A stretch of DNA of 64,000 bases from the IMG/VR virus record IMGVR_UViG_2639762822_000001; one strand, given 5' to 3'. Each line of letters starts with the position of its first letter. Position 1 is the first letter of the stretch. Positions 33 through 33,357 of the stretch are shown here, one piece after another. Origin of the DNA: a virus. Its lineage: Duplodnaviria > Heunggongvirae > Uroviricota > Caudoviricetes. The translations under genes and the position numbers were made by a program. Under the pieces are notes generated by a model, which ran no database searches, was not told the origin of the DNA, and was given only the letters and a program-made list of their open reading frames with translations.

Positions 33-602
33 TTATAAAATTCCTGAAAGAACGTCTCGAACCTGTCGGAATTGGTCTGTCTGCATACCGGTGTAAATCG
101 ACGCCACGGCATCTGCAAGGTGCTCGTTTTTACCCACCAGCACTTCTTTGCCAGATTGTTTCCGTCGAAGCCACGGGGCATTTGGTTGCTTCTGCGTAGC
201 CCATTGTATGATTTCTTCTTTCGATGTAGTCAGCTTGTTTCCGACATAATGCTTGATCTCATTTGGTGTAACCTGAATGAGCGGCTTATCTACGCACGCG
301 AGCACGCCAATGCAGACACCATATGAGGTCTGAGCACGACTCGATTGACTGCCAACCGGCAACTCGCAAAAGACCATGTGTGCCTGCTCAATAATGGGCT
401 TGGCTGTACGCCATATTTCATTGGCGCGGCGAAGATCGTCGCTGTTCACACGGACTGTTTTTTTATTGCCACCGGCTTTGGTTTCTACCAGCGTTAGTCC
501 GGTAATATAAAGATTACCCGTCTCCAGATCCAGCGTACCAATCGCCAGGCCAAAGTTGCTCATTGAAGGGTCTACACCGACCACCCGAATAGTTTTACTC
601 AT
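33..602 (-). CDS. RuvC-like Holliday junction resolvase (phage-type)
   Basis: N-terminal VVGVDPSMSNFGLAIG resembles the RuvC/YqgF first catalytic Asp motif; C-terminal HLADAVASIY resembles the RuvC HAxDA motif; sits within the recombination gene block. Confidence 0.5.
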   Translation of the reverse strand: MSKTIRVVGVDPSMSNFGLAIGTLDLETGNLYITGLTLVETKAGGNKKTVRVNSDDLRRANEIWRTAKPIIEQAHMVFCELPVGSQSSRAQTSYGVCIGVLACVDKPLIQVTPNEIKHYVGNKLTTSKEEIIQWATQKQPNAPWLRRKQSGKEVLVGKNEHLADAVASIYTGMQTDQFRQVRDVLSGIL

Positions 603-612
603 TTTGGTCTCC

Positions 613-1386
613 TTACCACGAAGCCCAGATAGGGCACTCCATTAATTTCTGCTCAAGGGTCTTCTCCACCGCACGAGTCGCCGAAGATGCGTGTGACTTG
701 TCCACAACGTTAACGATGTCATTAGTGAAAGAACCTGTCGCAGTGTCTGCGCTGATCATGCTCTGCCCGATGAAGCAGCTCAGGATGTCGATCAACCGCC
801 GCGCTTTTCGTCTATCAGCATAAAACACATGCGGGAGAGCGACTTCGATCCTCGCTACACCGCCATCCTCACCTACAAAGCACAGTTTTGCTCGCTCATG
901 AGCAGGTCCCTCTGGATTGTACTCTATGTGGAAGTTGACAAACGCAACGCCCGGCATCGTAACGTGGCCGGCGCTCTCGTTAGCTTTGCGAATCAGATTG
1001 GTGAAAGCGATGCCGAGGTGCGACTCCATCGCGTCGAAAAGCGCACTTTCGTTGATGTTCAACTCACCAGTTTCAGGGATCGTTACAAAACCCGGCCCAG
1101 AATATGGAAGATAACCGCCTTCCGCGAATGGGTTGATCAGGATTGGCGCGGTGCTTCCTGACGGCAGAGCGTCCAGGTTTGGCATCGTCGGAGTCGCGGC
1201 CAAAAGGTTTGTCAGAACCGAAAACTGGTCAGTGAGAACATTGCCGTTGTACCAGGCAAGCCTCGGAGCTGCACCAACTGACGTATGACTATTGATCAGC
1301 CTGATGGACTGCATAACTGCAAACATCTGCAAAAACTGTGTGCGGCTCAAATTAAACGACATAGCTGCGGCCCTCTTTGACTTCAA
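613..1386 (-). CDS. hypothetical protein
   Basis: 257-aa ORF, no recognisable motif; overlaps the sbcC 3' end by about 35 nt. Confidence 0.4.
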   Translation of the reverse strand: MKSKRAAAMSFNLSRTQFLQMFAVMQSIRLINSHTSVGAAPRLAWYNGNVLTDQFSVLTNLLAATPTMPNLDALPSGSTAPILINPFAEGGYLPYSGPGFVTIPETGELNINESALFDAMESHLGIAFTNLIRKANESAGHVTMPGVAFVNFHIEYNPEGPAHERAKLCFVGEDGGVARIEVALPHVFYADRRKARRLIDILSCFIGQSMISADTATGSFTNDIVNVVDKSHASSATRAVEKTLEQKLMECPIWASW

Positions 1387-3268
1387 CAGTGATTGTTTCC
1401 CTGAACCACGACTTCATCTCCTTATGCGAAATGATCATCACTGTGCCGCGCTCGCGCGCTTTTGACTCAAGAATCCCCATGAGACGTTCAAGGCCGGCAG
1501 TGTCCAGCGCATCGTCAATCTCATCGCCGATAAACAGTTCAATGCTCTTGCTGGCGCGACTGGCGACCAAATCCTGCAAGGCAAGTGAGCACGCTATGCG
1601 CACCTTTCGCTTCTCTCCTCCTGATAATGTCTGGAAGGATTTGCTGGCGCCGGTTTTCGTCACGCTGATATTAAACTTATCGCGATATTCCCCTTTCTTG
1701 GTGGTCTCCATTGTTGACCATTCAGCAACAATATTCCCGTCAGAAAGCGTGTTGAGATACTCCGCAGTTCTGATATTCAGGAACGGTGTCACAGATGTCA
1801 AAATGTGGGAGCGCACTCCTGCTGGGGAATAAACTTGGCGTGCCTTCTCCAGTAGCAAAGCCTGCTCCTGTATATTCTTTAGCTCTGTTTTTAATACTGC
1901 GTAATTAGATTTATTGGCAGCCAGGCTCTCTTCGTGACGCTTAATGACTGCGGTAAAAGGGTTAACCTCCGCAATGATTCTGTTCACCTCAGAACGTGCT
2001 CTGGCGACCACAGCTTCTACAGCGGCAAGCTCGCGTTCACGGTGGTTCAATGCACTCAGTTCATTGGTCAGCCGCTCAATTTTGGCGATAATGGCTGACA
2101 TATCGGGAGCGGCTGCGACCATTGCGGATTCGATACCGAGCGCTTTTTCAAGATGCTCTTTGTATTTAACCACTGCCGCTGCTGATGCCTGCGCCTGGCT
2201 GATCTCGTTACGCGCTTGTTCAATGAAACTCTCCTTTACGGTGGATAAATCTTCTTCACAGTAGGGTTTGCCACACGTCGCGCAAGGGGCGCCAACTTTG
2301 GTACCTACCTCTTCTGCTTTTGCTTTGAATGCACGAGCGCGGCCTGTGGAATTGTTCTGGGCGGCTTCCGCGCTACGGATACTGGCGCGAATGTCCGTGA
2401 TCACAGTTCGCACTTTTAACAACTTTGAATCATGTTCTTCTTTGGAGGCCAGCTTCTCGCGCTCAGAAATAATTGCTCTTTCCGTATCACGAATTTGCTC
2501 AGGGAGTGTGCGGATCTCCATCTCCACTTCGGAAAGAGTTACTTCTGCGCCGGCCAAGTCTACGCGAGCCTTATCCAGACGATCGCCGCGCTCACGCTCC
2601 CAGCTTTCAGAAGACGCTTTAGCCGACTCAATTTCCGACTGTGCCGTTTCAATGAGTGTGATGCAGGCGTCCATTTTGGTCTTCGTAACATCCATTCGTG
2701 CGGCAGCTGCATTGGCTCGTTCACGGGCAATCGCGTAGGCACGAGTGAGTCTGTCAACGCCCGCAGCCTCCTCTACAATGGTTTTGAGGTTCTTATCTGA
2801 CATGCCGGGAAGATCTGGCATCGCCTCCTGACTGGCATAGATTGACGCCATAAAGACCTCTTTTGAGGCGCCAATCAGACGTTCAACGAACTCCTGCGTC
2901 AACGTATCCTTGCCTTTAGTCATATCGCCGTCTTCGCCACGGACGATTAGCCTGTTTTTGAACTCTTTATGTTTGCGATGGCGAATGATGGCGTAGCGCT
3001 TGCCCTCATCTTCAACAGTCACCATCACTCGACAATTTTTTTCATGGCCCGTCGACAGAACATCGTCCCCTTTAACGCCATGCGCAGTTTCGCCATAAAG
3101 ACACCACATCAAACTGTTCATCAGGGTGGATTTCCCCGCGCCATTACTGGCAGCAGACGTATCGCCACTGTTCACGCCCTGGATTAACACCAGCCCACGC
3201 TGATCTAACTCAACTTCGGCGCTGGCCAGCGCCATAAAGTTCTCAACCTGGAGCTTAAGAAATTTCAT
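1352..3268 (-). CDS. sbcC: SbcC/Rad50-family ATPase (T4 gp46-like recombination nuclease subunit)
   Basis: Walker A GAGKSTL near the N-terminus, long coiled-coil middle with a CxxC zinc-hook-like CATCGKPYC, ABC signature LSGGEKRK and Walker B LFIGDEIDDALD at the C-terminus. Confidence 0.85.
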   Translation of the reverse strand: MKFLKLQVENFMALASAEVELDQRGLVLIQGVNSGDTSAASNGAGKSTLMNSLMWCLYGETAHGVKGDDVLSTGHEKNCRVMVTVEDEGKRYAIIRHRKHKEFKNRLIVRGEDGDMTKGKDTLTQEFVERLIGASKEVFMASIYASQEAMPDLPGMSDKNLKTIVEEAAGVDRLTRAYAIARERANAAAARMDVTKTKMDACITLIETAQSEIESAKASSESWERERGDRLDKARVDLAGAEVTLSEVEMEIRTLPEQIRDTERAIISEREKLASKEEHDSKLLKVRTVITDIRASIRSAEAAQNNSTGRARAFKAKAEEVGTKVGAPCATCGKPYCEEDLSTVKESFIEQARNEISQAQASAAAVVKYKEHLEKALGIESAMVAAAPDMSAIIAKIERLTNELSALNHRERELAAVEAVVARARSEVNRIIAEVNPFTAVIKRHEESLAANKSNYAVLKTELKNIQEQALLLEKARQVYSPAGVRSHILTSVTPFLNIRTAEYLNTLSDGNIVAEWSTMETTKKGEYRDKFNISVTKTGASKSFQTLSGGEKRKVRIACSLALQDLVASRASKSIELFIGDEIDDALDTAGLERLMGILESKARERGTVMIISHKEMKSWFRETITVEVKEGRSYVV

Positions 3269-3456
3269 ACAACACCTCTGATCCCGTGAGTCAGTTTCTG
3301 ACCTTTTTTCAATCTAAACTCCGTGTGCGCCGGGAAGGACTTACGCTTTAGCAAGCCTTGTTCAGTAAGTCTCCCCAGATAAAACGCCATTGGATTTCCG
3401 TCTGGCGGATAGGGCTTGTGGAACATCACCGTCTGGCCTCGTTCAAGTCTTTTCAT
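3265..3456 (-). CDS. small hypothetical protein between sbcD and sbcC
   Basis: 63-aa ORF starting at an internal ATG of the 3265..3600 frame; weak ribosome-binding site. Confidence 0.2.
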   Translation of the reverse strand: MKRLERGQTVMFHKPYPPDGNPMAFYLGRLTEQGLLKRKSFPAHTEFRLKKGQKLTHGIRGVV

Positions 3457-3497
3457 CGTGATGGCAAAGTCCCGAAAGCTCCCAGCATGATTTCTGC

Positions 3498-4583
3498 TCA
3501 CACTGCCTCCGCGCTCTCCGCTTCGGTAAGAATTTCCTGACACAGCATGTCCAGTTTGCTTAAGTCGAAGCCGCCGTCCGTGTCGTGGACAATCTTGCAA
3601 TACGCCGCTACGGACTCACCCAGACTGTCAATTTTGCTGGTCTCCGATGTACTGGCAGAACCCTCCATCATTGACGCCTTGCGAATGAAGTTGCAGACAA
3701 TGCCTTTCGCGCCCATTGTTTTCAGGACGTTCTGGATTTTGATCCCTTCCTCATCGCTATCAACGACGGCGCGGAAACGCACGTAATTCCCGCGGATCTG
3801 CGTGTCTTCCACATCATCTTCAAGGTTCACGAATTTGGGTGCAGAGGTTTCATGGTGGCTGAAAGAACCGTCCGGATTGACGATCATGAAACCAGCCAGC
3901 GAGCCTACATCTCCCCAATTCTGGTGTGTCAGAGCGCCGATACTCACGACGCCAGGCAGCACCTCTTTGTGGTTGTGGTAATGCCCGGACAGCAGCAGGC
4001 GAAAGCCAATGTCTTTCAGTTCTTGTGCGTCTATGCCCACATCAGGCATGGTTGGAATGGCTTTGTTGATCGAGGTATGCACTACAACGTCATGCTTTCC
4101 GTCGTCCAGACCAGACCGCAGCGTCTTCAGGTCGCTAATCAGTTCCGCGTGGTTGTTTCGCCAGCTCACCATATGGACTGAAACATCGCCCATTTTGATG
4201 GTATGGGGGCGTTTGCCGCAGACGATCTCCACCCCAATCGAGCGCAAAGATGCCGCGGCGTTAGCGCTGTAAACGGAGTCGTTTGTTTCAAGGTCGTGAT
4301 TGCCCGCCAACATAGCTACTTCGAGGCCAAGCTCTTTGATAATCCATTCGTATGTTTCCGTGACGAAATGCAGAACAGAAGGCGATACGGCGCCACGAAC
4401 ATGAAACGTATCGCCAGCCACCAACATGTACTTGCAACCGGCCGCTTTCATGGCTTTCGCAGCTTCTTTGGTGGCGTCGAGTTGAATCACCAGTCTGGAG
4501 TTCAAGCCGTCAGCGTTTGTTGTCGCAAAAGCATCCCAACGATGATAATGGGGATCTGAAATCACCCCGTATGGAACAGTCAT
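3498..4583 (-). CDS. sbcD: SbcD/Mre11-family nuclease (T4 gp47-like)
   Basis: Calcineurin-like phosphoesterase motifs DPHYH, GDTFH, GNHD; directly upstream of sbcC; start preceded by AAAGGAAAGACACATG. Confidence 0.85.
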   Translation of the reverse strand: MTVPYGVISDPHYHRWDAFATTNADGLNSRLVIQLDATKEAAKAMKAAGCKYMLVAGDTFHVRGAVSPSVLHFVTETYEWIIKELGLEVAMLAGNHDLETNDSVYSANAAASLRSIGVEIVCGKRPHTIKMGDVSVHMVSWRNNHAELISDLKTLRSGLDDGKHDVVVHTSINKAIPTMPDVGIDAQELKDIGFRLLLSGHYHNHKEVLPGVVSIGALTHQNWGDVGSLAGFMIVNPDGSFSHHETSAPKFVNLEDDVEDTQIRGNYVRFRAVVDSDEEGIKIQNVLKTMGAKGIVCNFIRKASMMEGSASTSETSKIDSLGESVAAYCKIVHDTDGGFDLSKLDMLCQEILTEAESAEAV

Positions 4584-12549: not shown

Positions 12550-12578
12550 ATGATAAGTAAGTACTTATATATTTTCAA
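12550..12578 (-). promoter_or_regulatory. sigma70-like promoter whose 17-bp spacer is the palindromic motif
   Basis: On the minus strand: TTGAAA, then ATATATAAGTACTTACT (17 bp), then TATCAT; lies between an upstream terminator and the 12520 start codon. Confidence 0.45.
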
Positions 12579-26595: not shown

Positions 26596-26628
26596 AATGA
26601 TTCCATACTTAATAGGTATGGAATCATT
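26596..26628. other. lox/dif-like recombination site candidate (13-bp perfect inverted arms, 7-bp spacer)
   Basis: AATGATTCCATAC-TTAATAG-GTATGGAATCATT about 100 bp upstream of the tyrosine recombinase gene. Confidence 0.5.
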
Positions 26629-31783: not shown

Positions 31784-31870
31784 TTGGCGGAAGGTAATGG
31801 AATCGAACCATCACCGCGCTAGCAGTGAGACGGTTTTCAAGACCGCTTGAGCACCATGCTCCCTACCTTC
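31784..31870 (-). tRNA. tRNA-Ser (anticodon UGA), class II with long variable arm
   Basis: Acceptor GGAAGGT/ACCTTCC, anticodon arm GCGGT-CUUGAAA-ACCGU, T-loop TTCGATT, 3' GCCA; 87 nt. Confidence 0.7.
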
Positions 31871-32122
31871 CGTTATTTAGTGTGGTGGCCGGCGCTGATC
31901 TCCGGCATAACAACCCGACTTAAATTCGCGACTTTAAATCGGTTCCTCCGTTTGTTCACTTCAGCCCGGAGTTAGCAACCTCAGTCACTCACCGATATGC
32001 CTATCAGTGGCGCGCATCAGCCTGCGCATTCACCACAACGGAAAGAGCACTGCATGACGTTTGCACGGACTTACGACTTTCGTGGCAGTCTCGGCGGTTC
32101 TCAATGCTCTTACCTGTTGTGT

Positions 32123-32255
32123 TGGTGCCGGTTAACGGACTCGAACCGTTGACCTCTGGCCTAACATCGGATCGTTGTCATTGACCAGCCATGCTGTCTA
32201 CCGAAGTAGAAACGATGCTTTGGCTCTCGCGCTCTACCAACTGAGCTAAACCGGC
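32123..32255 (-). tRNA. tRNA-like gene with extra internal sequence (possibly disrupted tRNA-Asn(GUU))
   Basis: Canonical 5' half GCCGGTT-TA-GCTCAGTTGGTAGAGC and 3' half AGGTC-AACGG-TTCGAGT-CCGTT-AACCGGC-A-CCA with a perfectly complementary acceptor, separated by about 57 extra nt that include a UUCG-tetraloop hairpin. Confidence 0.35.
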
Positions 32256-32257
32256 AT

Positions 32258-32332
32258 TGGCGATGATGGGTGGATTCGAACCACCGACCAGTTGATTAAC
32301 AGTCAACCGCTCTACCACTGAGCTACACCATC
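32258..32332 (-). tRNA. tRNA-Asn (anticodon GUU)
   Basis: GATGGTG-TA-GCTC-AGTGGTA-GAGC-G-GTTGA-CTGTTAA-TCAAC-TGGTC-GGTGG-TTCGAAT-CCACC-CATCATC-G-CCA. Confidence 0.8.
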
Positions 32333-33051
32333 AATTTCGCAGCGGTACTGGCTTCAAAGATAAAGTTTTCCCGCAACTTGCACTTTACGTTAGTGCCAGA
32401 CGAGGCTTGCGGCTCGCTCAAATAGAGCGAAGATCTTAAACACTGCTCGGTGCTTCAGAGAGCGCCGGGGAGTCAGATCTTATTGGATGTATGGAATCAT
32501 CCGTGTTGTGGCAGCTACATGCTAAAACCAGAGGGTATTACTATTGCCACAACGTTGAGGCCACTAAACTAGTAATGTTTGCCCAACATCTTTGTCAGTC
32601 GCTACAGCCTCTGTGGATTCACCTGTATGATTGAAAGAAACAGTGGCCTCAACGTTGTGTGCTGGCTAACCAGGCCAGCCGGGTTACGTCGCCGATCTTC
32701 TTTAACCCAAGACAAAACGACATAAGTAATGGAAATGACGTAACAGGATGAACGGTCGATAACTGAAACCGGGATAGGTGAATGGAATGAGGAAACCAAC
32801 CGCCCATCCTGTTACTTCATCGGAGAGGGCATGGGTGGTGCCGTATCATGCCCTCTCCTGCGTTCTGCAATCACACTCGCTCAGTGTGTCCCATTTCGGT
32901 GACGAGGCTGGAAACTGACCTCGCTGGTGTTTGGCTTATTAGGCTACTGCCAGATACTGATTGTCGTTTGCGGTTATCTTTAAACGTTCAAACAGTCGCG
33001 TACTAACGAAAACAAAGCAATCTTATATATATCATAAAAATAAGTAAATAC

Positions 33052-33357
33052 TTATTTATCAGCTATGCGTTCAGTTGATAACTTTTTGATCAGAGTCCCC
33101 TTCGAAGAGGGGGTTCGTGAGACAGTGACGGTAAATCGCTTCCCCTGGATAGTAATACTCTCGTGCTCCTTCAGTTCCCCATAGCGGATTTCCAATAGGG
33201 CGCCAAGACGCCATAGTCCATCATCGATACGCTTTTTACTGGCAAACTTTATCATCAACCATTTCACAATAAATTGGCCTGTAGCGAATGCGCACGCAAC
33301 GCCAGCCGCCGTAAAGTAGGCGACCAGCCACCAGTCGAGTGAGGTCAGTTCCGTCAT
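33052..33357 (-). CDS. small membrane-anchored hypothetical protein
   Basis: N-terminal TM helix. Confidence 0.4.
   Translation of the reverse strand: MTELTSLDWWLVAYFTAAGVACAFATGQFIVKWLMIKFASKKRIDDGLWRLGALLEIRYGELKEHESITIQGKRFTVTVSRTPSSKGTLIKKLSTERIADK

What the first reader, a model, noticed from the sequence alone, without database searches (positions are those of the whole stretch)
32333..33051. About 720 bp of noncoding DNA packed with long perfect inverted repeats downstream of the tRNA cluster
No ORF of 60 aa or more. The region contains a long-range 18-bp inverted repeat (32548-32565 and 32642-32659), a 12-bp-stem hairpin GGAGAGGGCATG...CATGCCCTCTCC at 32822-32858, AACAGGATG...CATCCTGTT arms at about 32750 and 32808, and GCTGGC-TAACCAG-GCCAGC. 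It also carries one copy of the GTATGGAATCAT 12-mer and ends in a promoter-type palindrome at 33037. Candidates include a structured regulatory RNA, a lytic origin or a packaging site.
Basis: seen in the sequence. Interest (0 to 1): 0.55.

Follow-up and report, generated by a model that had tools for sequence, protein, structure and literature searches.

The report
Phage RNA that may reprogram tmRNA
The "noncoding" 720 bp is a gene for a large folded RNA. Its first part is antisense to the host's ribosome-rescue RNA (tmRNA), and the next part carries its own tmRNA-style tag-coding template, so phages and phage-plasmids may use it to rewrite the host's protein-tagging system.

Summary
The inverted repeats are real and far beyond chance (fold z about -6.9). 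The region is a minus-strand RNA gene of about 680 nt (33013 to 32333). It has a sigma-70-like promoter and is co-transcribed with tRNA-Asn, a tRNA-Thr-like gene and tRNA-Ser. Across 41 SSU5-like phage-plasmids its helices covary, and only the minus strand folds well.

The first ~145 nt form a module shared by five or more unrelated phage lineages: SSU5-like plasmids including pMT1 of Y. pestis, Felixounavirus, Webervirus-like, Taipeivirus and Carvajevirus. The module has two halves.
- A 5' leader antisense to host tmRNA nt ~54/82-106, which covers the resume codon and tag codons 1-6.
- A tmRNA-like messenger domain: an A-rich context with invariant A at -4, a GCA resume codon, a 10-codon tag (ANDNQYLAVA here), stop codons in a hairpin loop, and a covarying pseudoknot.

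There is no tRNA-like domain in the window. ARAGORN, Rfam and PGAP annotate nothing here, and I found no description in the literature.

Best reading (inferred, not shown): the RNA docks on host tmRNA, masks its template and supplies its own. An origin or packaging site is not supported.

The parts
33041..33054 (.). Palindrome TAAGTA-AA-TACTTA overlapping the -35. It belongs to a motif family spread over the window and is probably a promoter or operator element.
   Evidence: 25 matches with up to 2 mismatches against 1.17 expected; perfect copies at 12554 and 33041. Invariant in 41 homologues.
33020..33048 (-). Sigma-70-like promoter: -35 TTTACT (33048-33043), 17-nt spacer, -10 TAAGAT (33025-33020). 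The predicted start is about 33013.
   Evidence: Read from the sequence. It falls below the strict consensus scan. The equivalent position in wV8 has TTGACA-17-TATAGT, and the predicted start coincides with GUUUUCG in both. The start site is inferred, not mapped.
32333..33013 (-). The whole RNA gene, about 680 nt, from the predicted start to the 5' end of tRNA-Asn. The 3' end is presumably made by RNase P.
   Evidence: No terminator-like site lies between the promoter and the tRNAs.
33005..33013 (-). Antisense block 1, GUUUUCGUU, complementary to host tmRNA nt 96-104 (tag codons 3-5).
   Evidence: Positions pairing with ssrA 97-104 are 88-100% Watson-Crick in 48 distinct leaders.
32990..32999 (-). 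Antisense block 2, GCGACUGUUU, complementary to host tmRNA nt 82-91 (U85, A86 and the resume codon).
   Evidence: Positions pairing with ssrA 86-91 are 85-100% Watson-Crick. Variants are mostly wobble-compatible.
32972..32984 (-). A-rich single-stranded context upstream of the resume codon (UUUAAAGAUAACC). A at -4 and A at -3 are invariant.
   Evidence: invariant A41, A42. For comparison, A86 of E. coli tmRNA is the main frame determinant (PMC2481249).
32936..32971 (-). Resume codon GCA, the 10-codon tag frame ANDNQYLAVA, and tandem stops UAA UAA.
   Evidence: There are 25 distinct coding sequences, all 10 codons plus a stop. Codon 6 is only Y or F, codon 10 is GCC/GCT/GCG, and the stop is TAA, TAG or TGA.
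32932..32952 (-). H5-like hairpin (UGGC / GCCA) with the stop codons in its loop.
   Evidence: 100% paired, with G-C to G-U variation only, so there are no compensatory changes.
32889..32924 (-). H-type pseudoknot. Stem 1 is 32924-32918 / 32908-32902. Stem 2 pairs the loop UUCC (32913-32910) with GGGA (32892-32889).
   Evidence: Stem 1 has 2 pairs with compensatory changes and stem 2 has 3 of 4. Register of stem 2 in SSU5-like sequences.
32872..32888 (-). Hairpin CACACU-GAGCG-AGUGUG that closes the conserved module.
   Evidence: 100% paired, 2 pairs with compensatory changes.
32397..32867 (-). Lineage-specific 3' domain closed by the long-range helix CAGAACG (32867-32861) / CGUCUG (32402-32397).
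   Evidence: the pair at columns 189/719 is G-C in 34 sequences and A-U in 7.
32822..32858 (-).
   Evidence: five pairs with compensatory changes. It is deleted in one homologue (L125).
32734..32821 (-).
   Evidence: One search shows AGG/CCU becoming GAG/CUC in L014.
32661..32679 (-). Hairpin GCUGGC-CUGGUUA-GCCAGC.
   Evidence: one compensatory pair plus G-U variation.
32548..32659 (-). 18-19-bp long-range helix (32659-32641 / 32566-32548) enclosing a variable insert.
   Evidence: compensatory changes at three pairs.
32486..32500 (-). Probably a protein-binding site shared with five other places in the window.
32380..32396 (-). Hairpin GCA-CUAACGUAAAG-UGC. Its loop resembles the host target CGACGAAAACU and is complementary to antisense block 1. 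It may be an internal partner or decoy.
   Evidence: I3; stem compensatory at 2 pairs.
32339..32377 (-). Last hairpin before tRNA-Asn.
   Evidence: one compensatory pair.
32258..32332 (-). tRNA-Asn (GUU), immediately 3' of the RNA. It presumably defines the RNA's 3' end through RNase P cleavage.

Best explanation
The region is a gene for a minus-strand RNA of about 680 nt, made from its own promoter and released by processing at the downstream tRNA-Asn. Its conserved 5' module has two halves.
- A 5'-terminal leader that base-pairs with the single-stranded messenger region of the host's tmRNA. In some lineages the pairing also covers the 3' half of pseudoknot 1. It hides the host frame-setting nucleotides U85/A86, the resume codon and tag codons 1-6.
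- Ten to eighteen nucleotides further on, the RNA's own tmRNA-type template: A-rich context, GCA resume codon, 10-codon tag, stops in an H5-like loop, and a pseudoknot.

Proposed mechanism: the RNA has no tRNA-like domain of its own, so it docks on alanine-charged host tmRNA. The ribosome rescued by that tmRNA then resumes on the phage template. Stalled proteins receive (A)ANDNQYLAVA instead of (A)ANDENYALAA. In effect this is a split tmRNA whose two pieces come from two genomes.

Shown: the repeats, the strand, the covariation, the homology of the two halves to antisense and sense tmRNA, the peptide-level conservation of the tag, and the absence of a tRNA-like domain in the window.
Inferred: the start site, the pairing in vivo, translation of the tag, and any benefit to the phage.
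For: Structure and strand
- Fold z is -6.9.
- 13 compensatory pairs across 41 SSU5-like homologues.
- The minus-strand consensus is -134 against -85 kcal/mol for plus, with 564 G-U cells against 5 A-C cells.

The module is shared by unrelated phages, always on the tRNA strand. There is one copy per locus by covariance model.

Sense half
- Rfam tmRNA matches over the tag region: window E = 0.02, wV8 E = 2e-4.
- My model hits E. coli ssrA on the sense strand at E = 0.02.
- A at -4 is invariant; compare A86 in PMC2481249.
- 25 distinct tag sequences all keep 10 codons plus a stop. Variation by codon position is 2/4/7. Codon 6 is only Tyr or Phe, and all three stop codons are used.
- With an anchor outside the tag frame, every related element recovered still had an intact frame.
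- Module structure: 97.5% of cells paired against 28-47% when slid; covariation score 0.32 against 0.11 or less; the second pseudoknot stem is compensatory at 3 of 4 pairs.

Antisense half
- The best hit of the model on the ssrA locus is the antisense strand, ssrA nt 64-106, E = 7e-4.
- Leader-to-host duplex energy is -23 to -42 kcal/mol, against -10 to -20 for the leader with its own template, in all 14 lineages tested.
- The core pairing positions are 85-100% Watson-Crick.
- Cofolding gives a net gain of -7 to -20 kcal/mol.
- The target is identical in the Klebsiella, Enterobacter, Citrobacter, Escherichia and Kluyvera ssrA sequences examined.

No tRNA-like domain: ARAGORN, Rfam, a T-arm scan and a custom acceptor/T-arm scan find none in the window.

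Background that makes a swap plausible: pseudoknot 1 and the tag template of tmRNA can be replaced without loss of activity, and the resume codon lies 12 nt after pseudoknot 1 (PMC2481249).
Against: - There is no expression or interaction data. The start site is inferred from promoter spacing only, and the promoter is too weak for the strict consensus scan.
- For the window's own lineage the leader-tmRNA duplex energy is not exceptional against shuffles (z = -1.15). The case rests on block-wise conservation and on homology with the longer leaders of other lineages (z = -4 to -4.6).
- In this lineage the leader has drifted (UUAGU instead of UUGAG). It loses one pair with tmRNA and gains three with the RNA's own 3' hairpin loop. 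An internal partner therefore competes.
- From memory, not checked, Salmonella's tag is ANDETYALAA. That would add one mismatch in block 1 for this Salmonella plasmid.
- The host resume codon would sit inside a duplex that a ribosome might still unwind.
- Whether a tethered second RNA can be loaded into the mRNA channel is unknown.
- The phage tag still looks like a degradation tag, so the benefit of swapping is unclear.
- Host tmRNA is invariant across these hosts, so leader-host covariation could not be tested.
- wV8 carries its own alanine-type tRNA-like element next to the module. That hints at a different arrangement in at least one lineage.
Confidence: 0.45

Rival explanations
1. A pure antisense inhibitor or sponge of host tmRNA. 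The leader blocks the host resume region and shuts down or slows tagging and rescue. The tmRNA-like half only helps to compete for tmRNA partners (SmpB tail, S1, RNase R) and is never translated.
For: The antisense complementarity is the same as in the best explanation. A TLD-only tmRNA fragment in mycobacteriophage DS6A has been proposed to inhibit tmRNA by titrating SmpB (PMC4131195), so phage interference with trans-translation has a precedent.
Against: The tag frame behaves like a translated sequence. It is always 10 codons plus a stop, with synonymous third-position changes, Tyr or Phe only at codon 6, all three stop codons used, and invariant A at -4. A decoy does not need these features.
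Confidence: 0.2
2. A structured leader or 'ornate' large RNA of the phage tRNA operon, in the manner of GOLLD, ROOL or the T4 stable RNAs. Its function would be unrelated to trans-translation, for example processing, stability or a scaffold. The tmRNA-like pieces would be relics of a captured, inverted ssrA fragment.
For: The RNA is large and highly structured. It lies next to tRNAs in phages. The 3' two-thirds are lineage-specific and show no tmRNA similarity.
Against: The 'relic' is the most conserved part and is the only part shared across five lineages. Its leader stays tuned to host tmRNA rather than to its own diverged copy. The tag shows peptide-level constraint. There is no Rfam match to GOLLD, ROOL or any other family.
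Confidence: 0.15
3. A complete phage ribosome-rescue RNA with an unrecognised tRNA-like partner. The template RNA would work with a phage-encoded tRNA-like piece (a true two-piece tmRNA) rather than with host tmRNA.
For: - In wV8 a D-armless tRNA-like element with G3:U70, A73 and CCA follows the module directly.
- In Carvaje and some Webervirus-like contigs, T-arm-bearing units flank the module.
- In the window, a tRNA-Thr-like gene with its anticodon arm replaced by a 75-nt insert lies about 750 nt downstream of the module, two genes on in the same transcript.
Against: - The window and most lineages have no element with alanine identity.
- The window's odd tRNA has C3-G70.
- No pairing between the module and such partners was found.
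- This model leaves the conserved antisense match to host tmRNA unexplained.
- Rfam's permuted-tmRNA model scores only 13-29 bits against a threshold of 47.
Confidence: 0.12
4. A DNA-level element, either a lytic replication origin or a pac/cos packaging site, built from inverted repeats.
For: Dense inverted repeats, and proximity to DNA ligase and primase genes.
Against: - Only short two-copy direct repeats, with no iteron-like array.
- Strongly strand-asymmetric conservation with G-U pairs.
- Compensatory changes that preserve pairing rather than sequence.
- A promoter and co-oriented tRNAs.
- The conserved core recurs in virulent phages with different replication and packaging modules.
Confidence: 0.03

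Closest known systems
tmRNA (SsrA, Rfam RF00023), one-piece form
   Same: An A-rich upstream context with the critical A at -4, a GCA resume codon, a 10-codon ANDxxY...A tag, stop codons in the loop of an H5-like hairpin, and a pseudoknot directly after it. There are weak but specific covariance-model matches in both directions.
   Different: There is no tRNA-like domain (no acceptor stem, T-arm or CCA), so it cannot be charged or enter the ribosome on its own. It carries a 5' arm antisense to tmRNA itself. It is followed by a 500-nt lineage-specific domain. It is encoded by phages and phage-plasmids inside tRNA operons.
Two-piece tmRNA from permuted ssrA genes (alpha-proteobacteria, cyanobacteria; RF01849, RF01851, RF04321)
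   Same: The tag template sits on a separate RNA that must be held to the alanine-accepting piece by base pairing.
   Different: In those systems both pieces come from one gene and pair through the acceptor stem and helix 2. Here the proposed partner is the host's complete tmRNA, and the pairing is to its messenger region and pseudoknot 1. The Rfam permuted model scores far below threshold.
Phage tmRNA genes: mycobacteriophage Bxz1 group, Bacillus phage G, and the TLD-only fragment of DS6A (PMC4131195)
   Same: Phages carrying all or part of the trans-translation RNA. DS6A carries only one half and was proposed to interfere with host tmRNA.
   Different: Those are complete tmRNAs or the tRNA-like half. 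This one is the messenger half plus an antisense arm. It was missed by the exhaustive 2014 survey of RefSeq plasmids and viruses.
Prophage-encoded anti-sRNAs and trans-acting antisense sRNAs with 5'-terminal seeds (AgvB and AsxR of EHEC prophages, from my own knowledge)
   Same: A mobile-element RNA whose 5' end is complementary to an abundant host regulatory RNA.
   Different: The target is tmRNA rather than an Hfq-dependent sRNA. The RNA also carries a replacement coding template.
GOLLD, ROOL and the phage T4 stable RNAs (rnaC, rnaD): large or stable phage RNAs next to tRNA genes (from my own knowledge)
   Same: The genomic setting (phage, adjacent to tRNAs, co-oriented), and the size and ornate structure of the full 680-nt RNA.
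   Different: No sequence or structure match (Rfam). Those RNAs have no tmRNA-like template and no antisense arm.

Membership tests
tmRNA (SsrA) | tRNA-like domain: acceptor stem with G3:U70, T-arm, 3' CCA | tested here: not met
   ARAGORN finds no tmRNA. Rfam at gathering score finds only three tRNAs in 64 kb. T-arm motifs occur only in those tRNAs. A custom acceptor/T-arm scan finds no G3:U70 element in the window.
tmRNA (SsrA) | Resume codon preceded by an A-rich context with the conserved A at -4, and no start codon or Shine-Dalgarno sequence | tested here: met
   with PMC2481249. The upstream in-frame codons contain no AUG or SD (read).
tmRNA (SsrA) | Short tag reading frame of the ANDxxYxxAA type, ending in stop codon(s) in the H5 loop | tested here: met
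   ANDNQYLAVA plus UAA UAA. 25 variants are all intact. The H5-like hairpin is 100% paired but without compensatory changes.
tmRNA (SsrA) | Pseudoknots flanking the template | tested here: inconclusive
   One covarying pseudoknot lies 3' of H5. There is no pseudoknot 1 and no PK3 or PK4; other helices take their place.
tmRNA (SsrA) | Score at or above the Rfam gathering threshold | tested here: not met
   10-15 bits against a threshold of 47.
Two-piece (permuted) tmRNA | An acceptor piece with T-arm and CCA encoded upstream of the coding piece, the two held together by acceptor-stem and helix 2 pairing | tested here: not met
   A promoter and a protein gene lie upstream in the window. RF04321 scores 13-29 bits against 47, and in wV8 only by borrowing the neighbouring tRNA-Ile.
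Trans-acting antisense RNA against host tmRNA (proposed) | Conserved complementarity to the target, stronger than to self, at an accessible site | tested here: met
   That ssrA nt 79-106 is single-stranded rests on published tmRNA structure knowledge, not on a test here.
Trans-acting antisense RNA against host tmRNA (proposed) | Physical pairing in vivo, and covariation of the leader with the host target | not testable with these tools
   The target is identical in the nine ssrA sequences examined. No interaction data are available.
GOLLD / ROOL and other Rfam large RNAs | Match to the family covariance model | tested here: not met
   No hit at E up to 1-10 or at gathering score.
Replication origin / pac site | Iterons or DnaA boxes, an AT-rich unwinding element, or terminase recognition repeats, with sequence rather than pairing conserved | tested here: not met
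   No iteron-like direct-repeat families. Conservation follows strand-specific RNA pairing.

The most novel reading that the evidence does not exclude
A natural trans-acting tag template. A phage or plasmid RNA hybridises to the host's charged tmRNA, silences its template and makes rescued ribosomes translate a phage-specified tag. This would be a split tmRNA assembled from two genomes. The module is spread by horizontal transfer among at least five phage lineages and sits on pMT1 of Yersinia pestis, on SSU5-like phage-plasmids of Salmonella, Enterobacter, Citrobacter and Cronobacter, and on Klebsiella phage-plasmids.
Probability: 0.45. Interest if true: 0.95.

Novelty: new variant of a known kind. 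Interest (0 to 1): 0.85.

Why it matters
If true, this would be the first known case of a virus or plasmid rewriting the output of the bacterial ribosome-rescue system rather than merely carrying its own copy or blocking it.

The module is common. It was found in more than 120 IMG/VR contigs, 808 plasmid records and 345 phage records (the record counts are hits to any part of the 719-bp region). It occurs in medically relevant replicons (pMT1, Klebsiella phage-plasmids) and in phage genera used for therapy (Felixounavirus, Webervirus, Taipeivirus). It is unannotated in the records examined.

It turns an open question, why phages carry pieces of tmRNA and what trans-translation does during infection, into simple experiments: tag mass spectrometry, pairing mutants and ssrA dependence. 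It also suggests a design for programmable protein tagging, using a small RNA that redirects endogenous tmRNA.

Even if the swap model fails, a conserved phage RNA antisense to tmRNA would still be new.

Tried and rejected
- **Known RNA families.** Rfam at E-value and gathering thresholds, and ARAGORN, find only tRNAs plus sub-threshold tmRNA fragments.
- **A hidden tRNA-like domain in the window.** A T-arm motif scan and an acceptor/T-arm/G3:U70 scan find none. Pairing of the 5' end with the 3' end before tRNA-Asn is not conserved.
- **Permuted tmRNA.** Only weak hits, and these borrow neighbouring tRNAs.
- **A conserved internal partner for the GUUUUCGU motif in all lineages.** The result is inconsistent. 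Several candidates lie inside tRNA-Ser. Only SSU5-like RNAs have a matching hairpin loop.
- **Collinear 8-10-nt identities with E. coli ssrA outside the template** (GCCCTCTC, TTAGTGGC, AGCATGTAG). At least AGCATGTAG is not conserved among homologues, so I treated these as chance.
- **Small ORFs.** The SD-AUG inside the 12-bp hairpin (MIRHHPCPLR), MIPYIQ at the 12-mer, and the 65-aa TTG ORF are not conserved.
- **A hammerhead-like CUGAUGA in Webervirus flanks.** No Rfam ribozyme hit.
- **Expression evidence from Y. pestis sRNA-seq.** The two pMT1 sRNAs, sR082 and sR083, map elsewhere on the plasmid, near ymt and IS elements.
- **An SmpB homologue in the window.** None, using a query sequence recalled from memory.
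- **Leader-host covariation.** Impossible, because ssrA nt 41-108 is identical in the hosts sampled.
- **Literature.** Six searches found no description of such an element.
Full report
**Context.** The window is an SSU5-like phage-plasmid. It is 99% identical over the region to Salmonella plasmid NZ_CP030187. It is about 84% identical to phage SSU5 and to Enterobacter, Citrobacter and Cronobacter plasmids, and 76-87% to Klebsiella, E. coli and Yersinia pestis pMT1 plasmids. All genes around the finding are on the minus strand:
- a 101-aa ORF at 33052-33357;
- tRNA-Asn at 32258-32332;
- a tRNA-Thr-like gene at 32126-32255;
- tRNA-Ser at 31785-31871.

SSU5 and phage Cyrano have the same unannotated gap of about 750 bp between the small protein genes and tRNA-Asn.

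**The observation.** The region folds much better than dinucleotide shuffles, with z = -6.9 on the minus strand and -6.6 on the plus strand. There are two corrections. A mechanical 65-aa TTG ORF exists at 32602-32799 on the minus strand, but homologues disrupt it by indels. Also, the region lies upstream of the tRNAs in the direction of transcription.

**It is an RNA, read from the minus strand.** I aligned 41 distinct SSU5-like homologues from IMG/VR. RNAalifold found 123 pairs, 13 of them with compensatory double changes. These fall in the 12-bp hairpin, the 18-bp helix, a long-range helix (32867-32861 / 32402-32397) and three further hairpins. The consensus energy is -134 kcal/mol on the minus strand and -85 on the plus strand. 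G-U cells outnumber A-C cells 564 to 5, which is what a minus-strand RNA predicts and DNA cruciforms do not.

At the right end there is a -35 TTTACT, a 17-nt spacer and a -10 TAAGAT (33048-33020). They lie inside a palindrome, TAAGTA-NN-TACTTA, that recurs across the window (25 matches against 1.2 expected). The promoter is too weak for the strict consensus scan. However, the equivalent place in phage wV8 has a perfect TTGACA-17-TATAGT. In both, the predicted start falls on the G of GUUUUCG. No terminator-like site precedes the tRNAs. The 3' end is therefore probably made by RNase P at tRNA-Asn (inference).

**A module shared by unrelated phages.** BLAST showed that 100-165 nt at the 5' end of this RNA (window 32869-33017) also occurs elsewhere. 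It is in Klebsiella siphophages of about 46-49 kb, in Carvajevirus, in Taipeivirus (about 158 kb) and in Felixounavirus. In each case it lies in an unannotated gap, on the same strand as adjacent tRNA genes. These cluster into 39 groups at 93% identity. A covariance model built from 38 representatives finds exactly one copy per locus, at 110-183 bits.

**The sense half is a tmRNA messenger domain.** On the minus strand the core reads UUUAAAGAUAACC | GCA AAC GAC AAU CAG UAU CUG GCA GUA GCC UAA UAA. That translates to ANDNQYLAVA, against E. coli ANDENYALAA.
- Rfam's tmRNA model aligns this stretch to its resume and tag positions. The window gives E = 0.02 and wV8 gives E = 2e-4, far below the gathering score.
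- My model hits E. coli ssrA on the sense strand over nt 39-111.
- A at -4 and -3 and the GCA are invariant in all 38 representatives. In E. coli, A86 at -4 is the main frame determinant (PMC2481249).
- Across 25 distinct tag-coding sequences the frame is always 10 codons plus a stop. Variable sites by codon position number 2, 4 and 7.
- Codon 6 is only TAT/TAC/TTC/TTT (Tyr or Phe). Codon 3 is Asp or Glu. Codon 10 is GCC/GCT/GCG. The stop is TAA, TAG or TGA.
- A second scan, anchored outside the tag, found further variants (ANEEMYLAAA, AKDDQFLAVA, synonymous LAVA codons), all intact.
- There is no AUG or Shine-Dalgarno sequence in frame upstream (read).
- The stops lie in the loop of a 4-bp hairpin. 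After it come an H-type pseudoknot and a hairpin. On 62 distinct sequences 97.5% of cells pair, against 28-47% when partners are slid. The covariation score is 0.32 against 0.11 or less, and 7 pairs have double changes, including 3 of the 4 pairs in the second pseudoknot stem.

**There is no tRNA-like domain.** ARAGORN, Rfam, a T-arm scan and a custom acceptor/T-arm scan find none in the window. Most other lineages also lack one next to the module. The exception is wV8. There a D-armless tRNA-like element with G3:U70, A73 and CCA follows the module. The exhaustive ssrA survey by Hudson et al. found tmRNA genes only in mycobacteriophages and Bacillus phage G, plus a TLD-only fragment in DS6A (PMC4131195). 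PGAP annotates nothing under the matches listed, out of 248 matching E. coli plasmid records.

**The 5' leader is antisense to host tmRNA.** I looked for a partner of the invariant 5' motif GUUUUCGU. No consistent internal partner emerged, but there is a consistent match to E. coli ssrA nt 95-106. The match extends further.
- The leaders resemble the reverse complement of ssrA nt 54-107 (alignment).
- Block 1, (UA)GUUUUCGU(C/UG), pairs with tag codons 3-6.
- Block 2, GCGACU(A/G)UUU, pairs with nt 82-91. These include U85, A86 and the resume codon.
- In the Webervirus, Carvaje and Taipei leaders, UUUGCGG(G)CUUUUUA pairs with the 3' strand of pseudoknot 1.
- Independently, the best hit of the covariance model on the ssrA locus is the antisense strand, nt 64-106, E = 7e-4.
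- In 48 distinct leaders the core positions are 85-100% Watson-Crick. The spacer between the blocks varies in length and sequence, and several variants are wobble-compatible.
- In all 14 lineages tested the leader binds host tmRNA about twice as well as its own template: -23 to -42 against -10 to -20 kcal/mol. The reason is that the phage tag codons 3-6 always differ from the host's GAC GAA AAC UAC.
- Cofolding predicts a net gain of 7-20 kcal/mol after unfolding costs.
- The target, ssrA nt 41-108, is identical in Klebsiella, Enterobacter, Citrobacter, Escherichia, Kluyvera, Kosakonia and Pluralibacter.

**Mechanism proposed (inference).** The RNA docks on host tmRNA through its 5' end. The duplex hides the host's frame-setting nucleotides and template. 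The phage's own single-stranded context and resume codon leave the duplex at the end next to pseudoknot 1, about 10-18 nt away. That is comparable to the 12 nt between pseudoknot 1 and the resume codon in tmRNA. Pseudoknot 1 and the tag template can be replaced experimentally without loss of function. A ribosome rescued by alanyl-tmRNA and SmpB could therefore resume on the phage template and add (A)ANDNQYLAVA. The peptide-level conservation of a frame that has no initiation signals is hard to explain unless it is read by trans-translation. With no tRNA-like domain of its own, host tmRNA is the obvious carrier.

**Weak points.**
- There are no expression or interaction data.
- The duplex energy for the window's own lineage is not exceptional against shuffles (z = -1.15). 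The longer leaders reach z = -4 to -4.6.
- In this lineage the leader has shifted towards pairing with the RNA's own 3' hairpin loop, CUAACGUAAAG at 32393-32383.
- The benefit of the altered tag is unclear. It keeps the AANDxxY part and ends in AVA rather than LAA. What this does to SspB or ClpX recognition is my speculation.
- Salmonella's own tag may differ by one codon. This is from memory and was not checked.

**The rest of the 680 nt.** It is a lineage-specific domain closed by a covarying long-range helix, followed by the target-like hairpin, a last hairpin and tRNA-Asn. Its role is unknown.

**Verdict.** The reading 'structured RNA' is right, and 'origin or pac site' is not supported. 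The region encodes a previously undescribed tmRNA-derived RNA, consisting of an antisense arm plus a replacement tag template and lacking a tRNA-like domain. It fails the membership test for tmRNA, but it most likely works through tmRNA.

Noticed in passing
window 32126-32255 (minus strand): A tRNA-Thr homologue keeps its acceptor, D and T arms, but its anticodon arm is replaced by a structured insert of about 75 nt. Rfam tRNA scores 46.7 bits with a 72-nt insertion, and ARAGORN misses it. The same gene is in IMG/VR contig L038 at 99%, while Cyrano has the normal 76-nt tRNA-Thr. It could be a natural 'tRNA-scaffold' RNA or an inactivated tRNA.
   Followed up: partly
One occurrence is the perfect palindrome ATGATTCCATAC-N7-GTATGGAATCAT at 26597-26627. 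Only the 33506 copy starts a plausible ORF (MIPYITLALIV..., 50 aa). It looks like a dispersed protein-binding or operator site. The copy inside the RNA gene is invariant in all SSU5-like homologues.
   Followed up: partly
window 12554-12567, 33041-33054 and about 13 other places: The palindrome TAAGTA-NN-TACTTA gives 25 matches (up to 2 mismatches) against 1.2 expected. It overlaps the -35 of the RNA promoter. It is probably a family of phage promoters or operators under common control.
   Followed up: partly
L005 (Escherichia phage wV8) 2322-2400, minus strand: An unannotated D-armless tRNA-like element with G3:U70, discriminator A73 and encoded CCA (alanine identity marks) lies directly after the tmRNA-like module. 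Rfam tRNA scores it at 31.7 bits.
   Followed up: partly
L003 (Klebsiella phage Carvaje) 2296-2871, minus strand; Webervirus-like IMG/VR contigs: The module sits in an array of structured units. Each unit is closed by a conserved helix, GGUAAGrrCrCU...AGUGCUCUUUCC or GUUGUGGUG...CACCACAAC. Some units contain T-arms. They may be processing signals or tRNA-like elements.
   Followed up: no
L004 (Klebsiella phage UPM 2146, Taipeivirus) 183-3517: About 3.3 kb with no annotated gene next to tRNA-Arg and tRNA-Met. It holds the module and also a match to Rfam STnc100 exactly at its gathering score (780-993, minus strand).
   Followed up: no
window 32380-32396 (minus strand): The loop of this hairpin (CUAACGUAAAG; CUAACGAAAAG in Cyrano-type plasmids) resembles the host tmRNA target CGACGAAAACU and is complementary to the RNA's own 5' seed. 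It may act as an internal 'safety catch' or close the RNA into a ring.
   Followed up: partly
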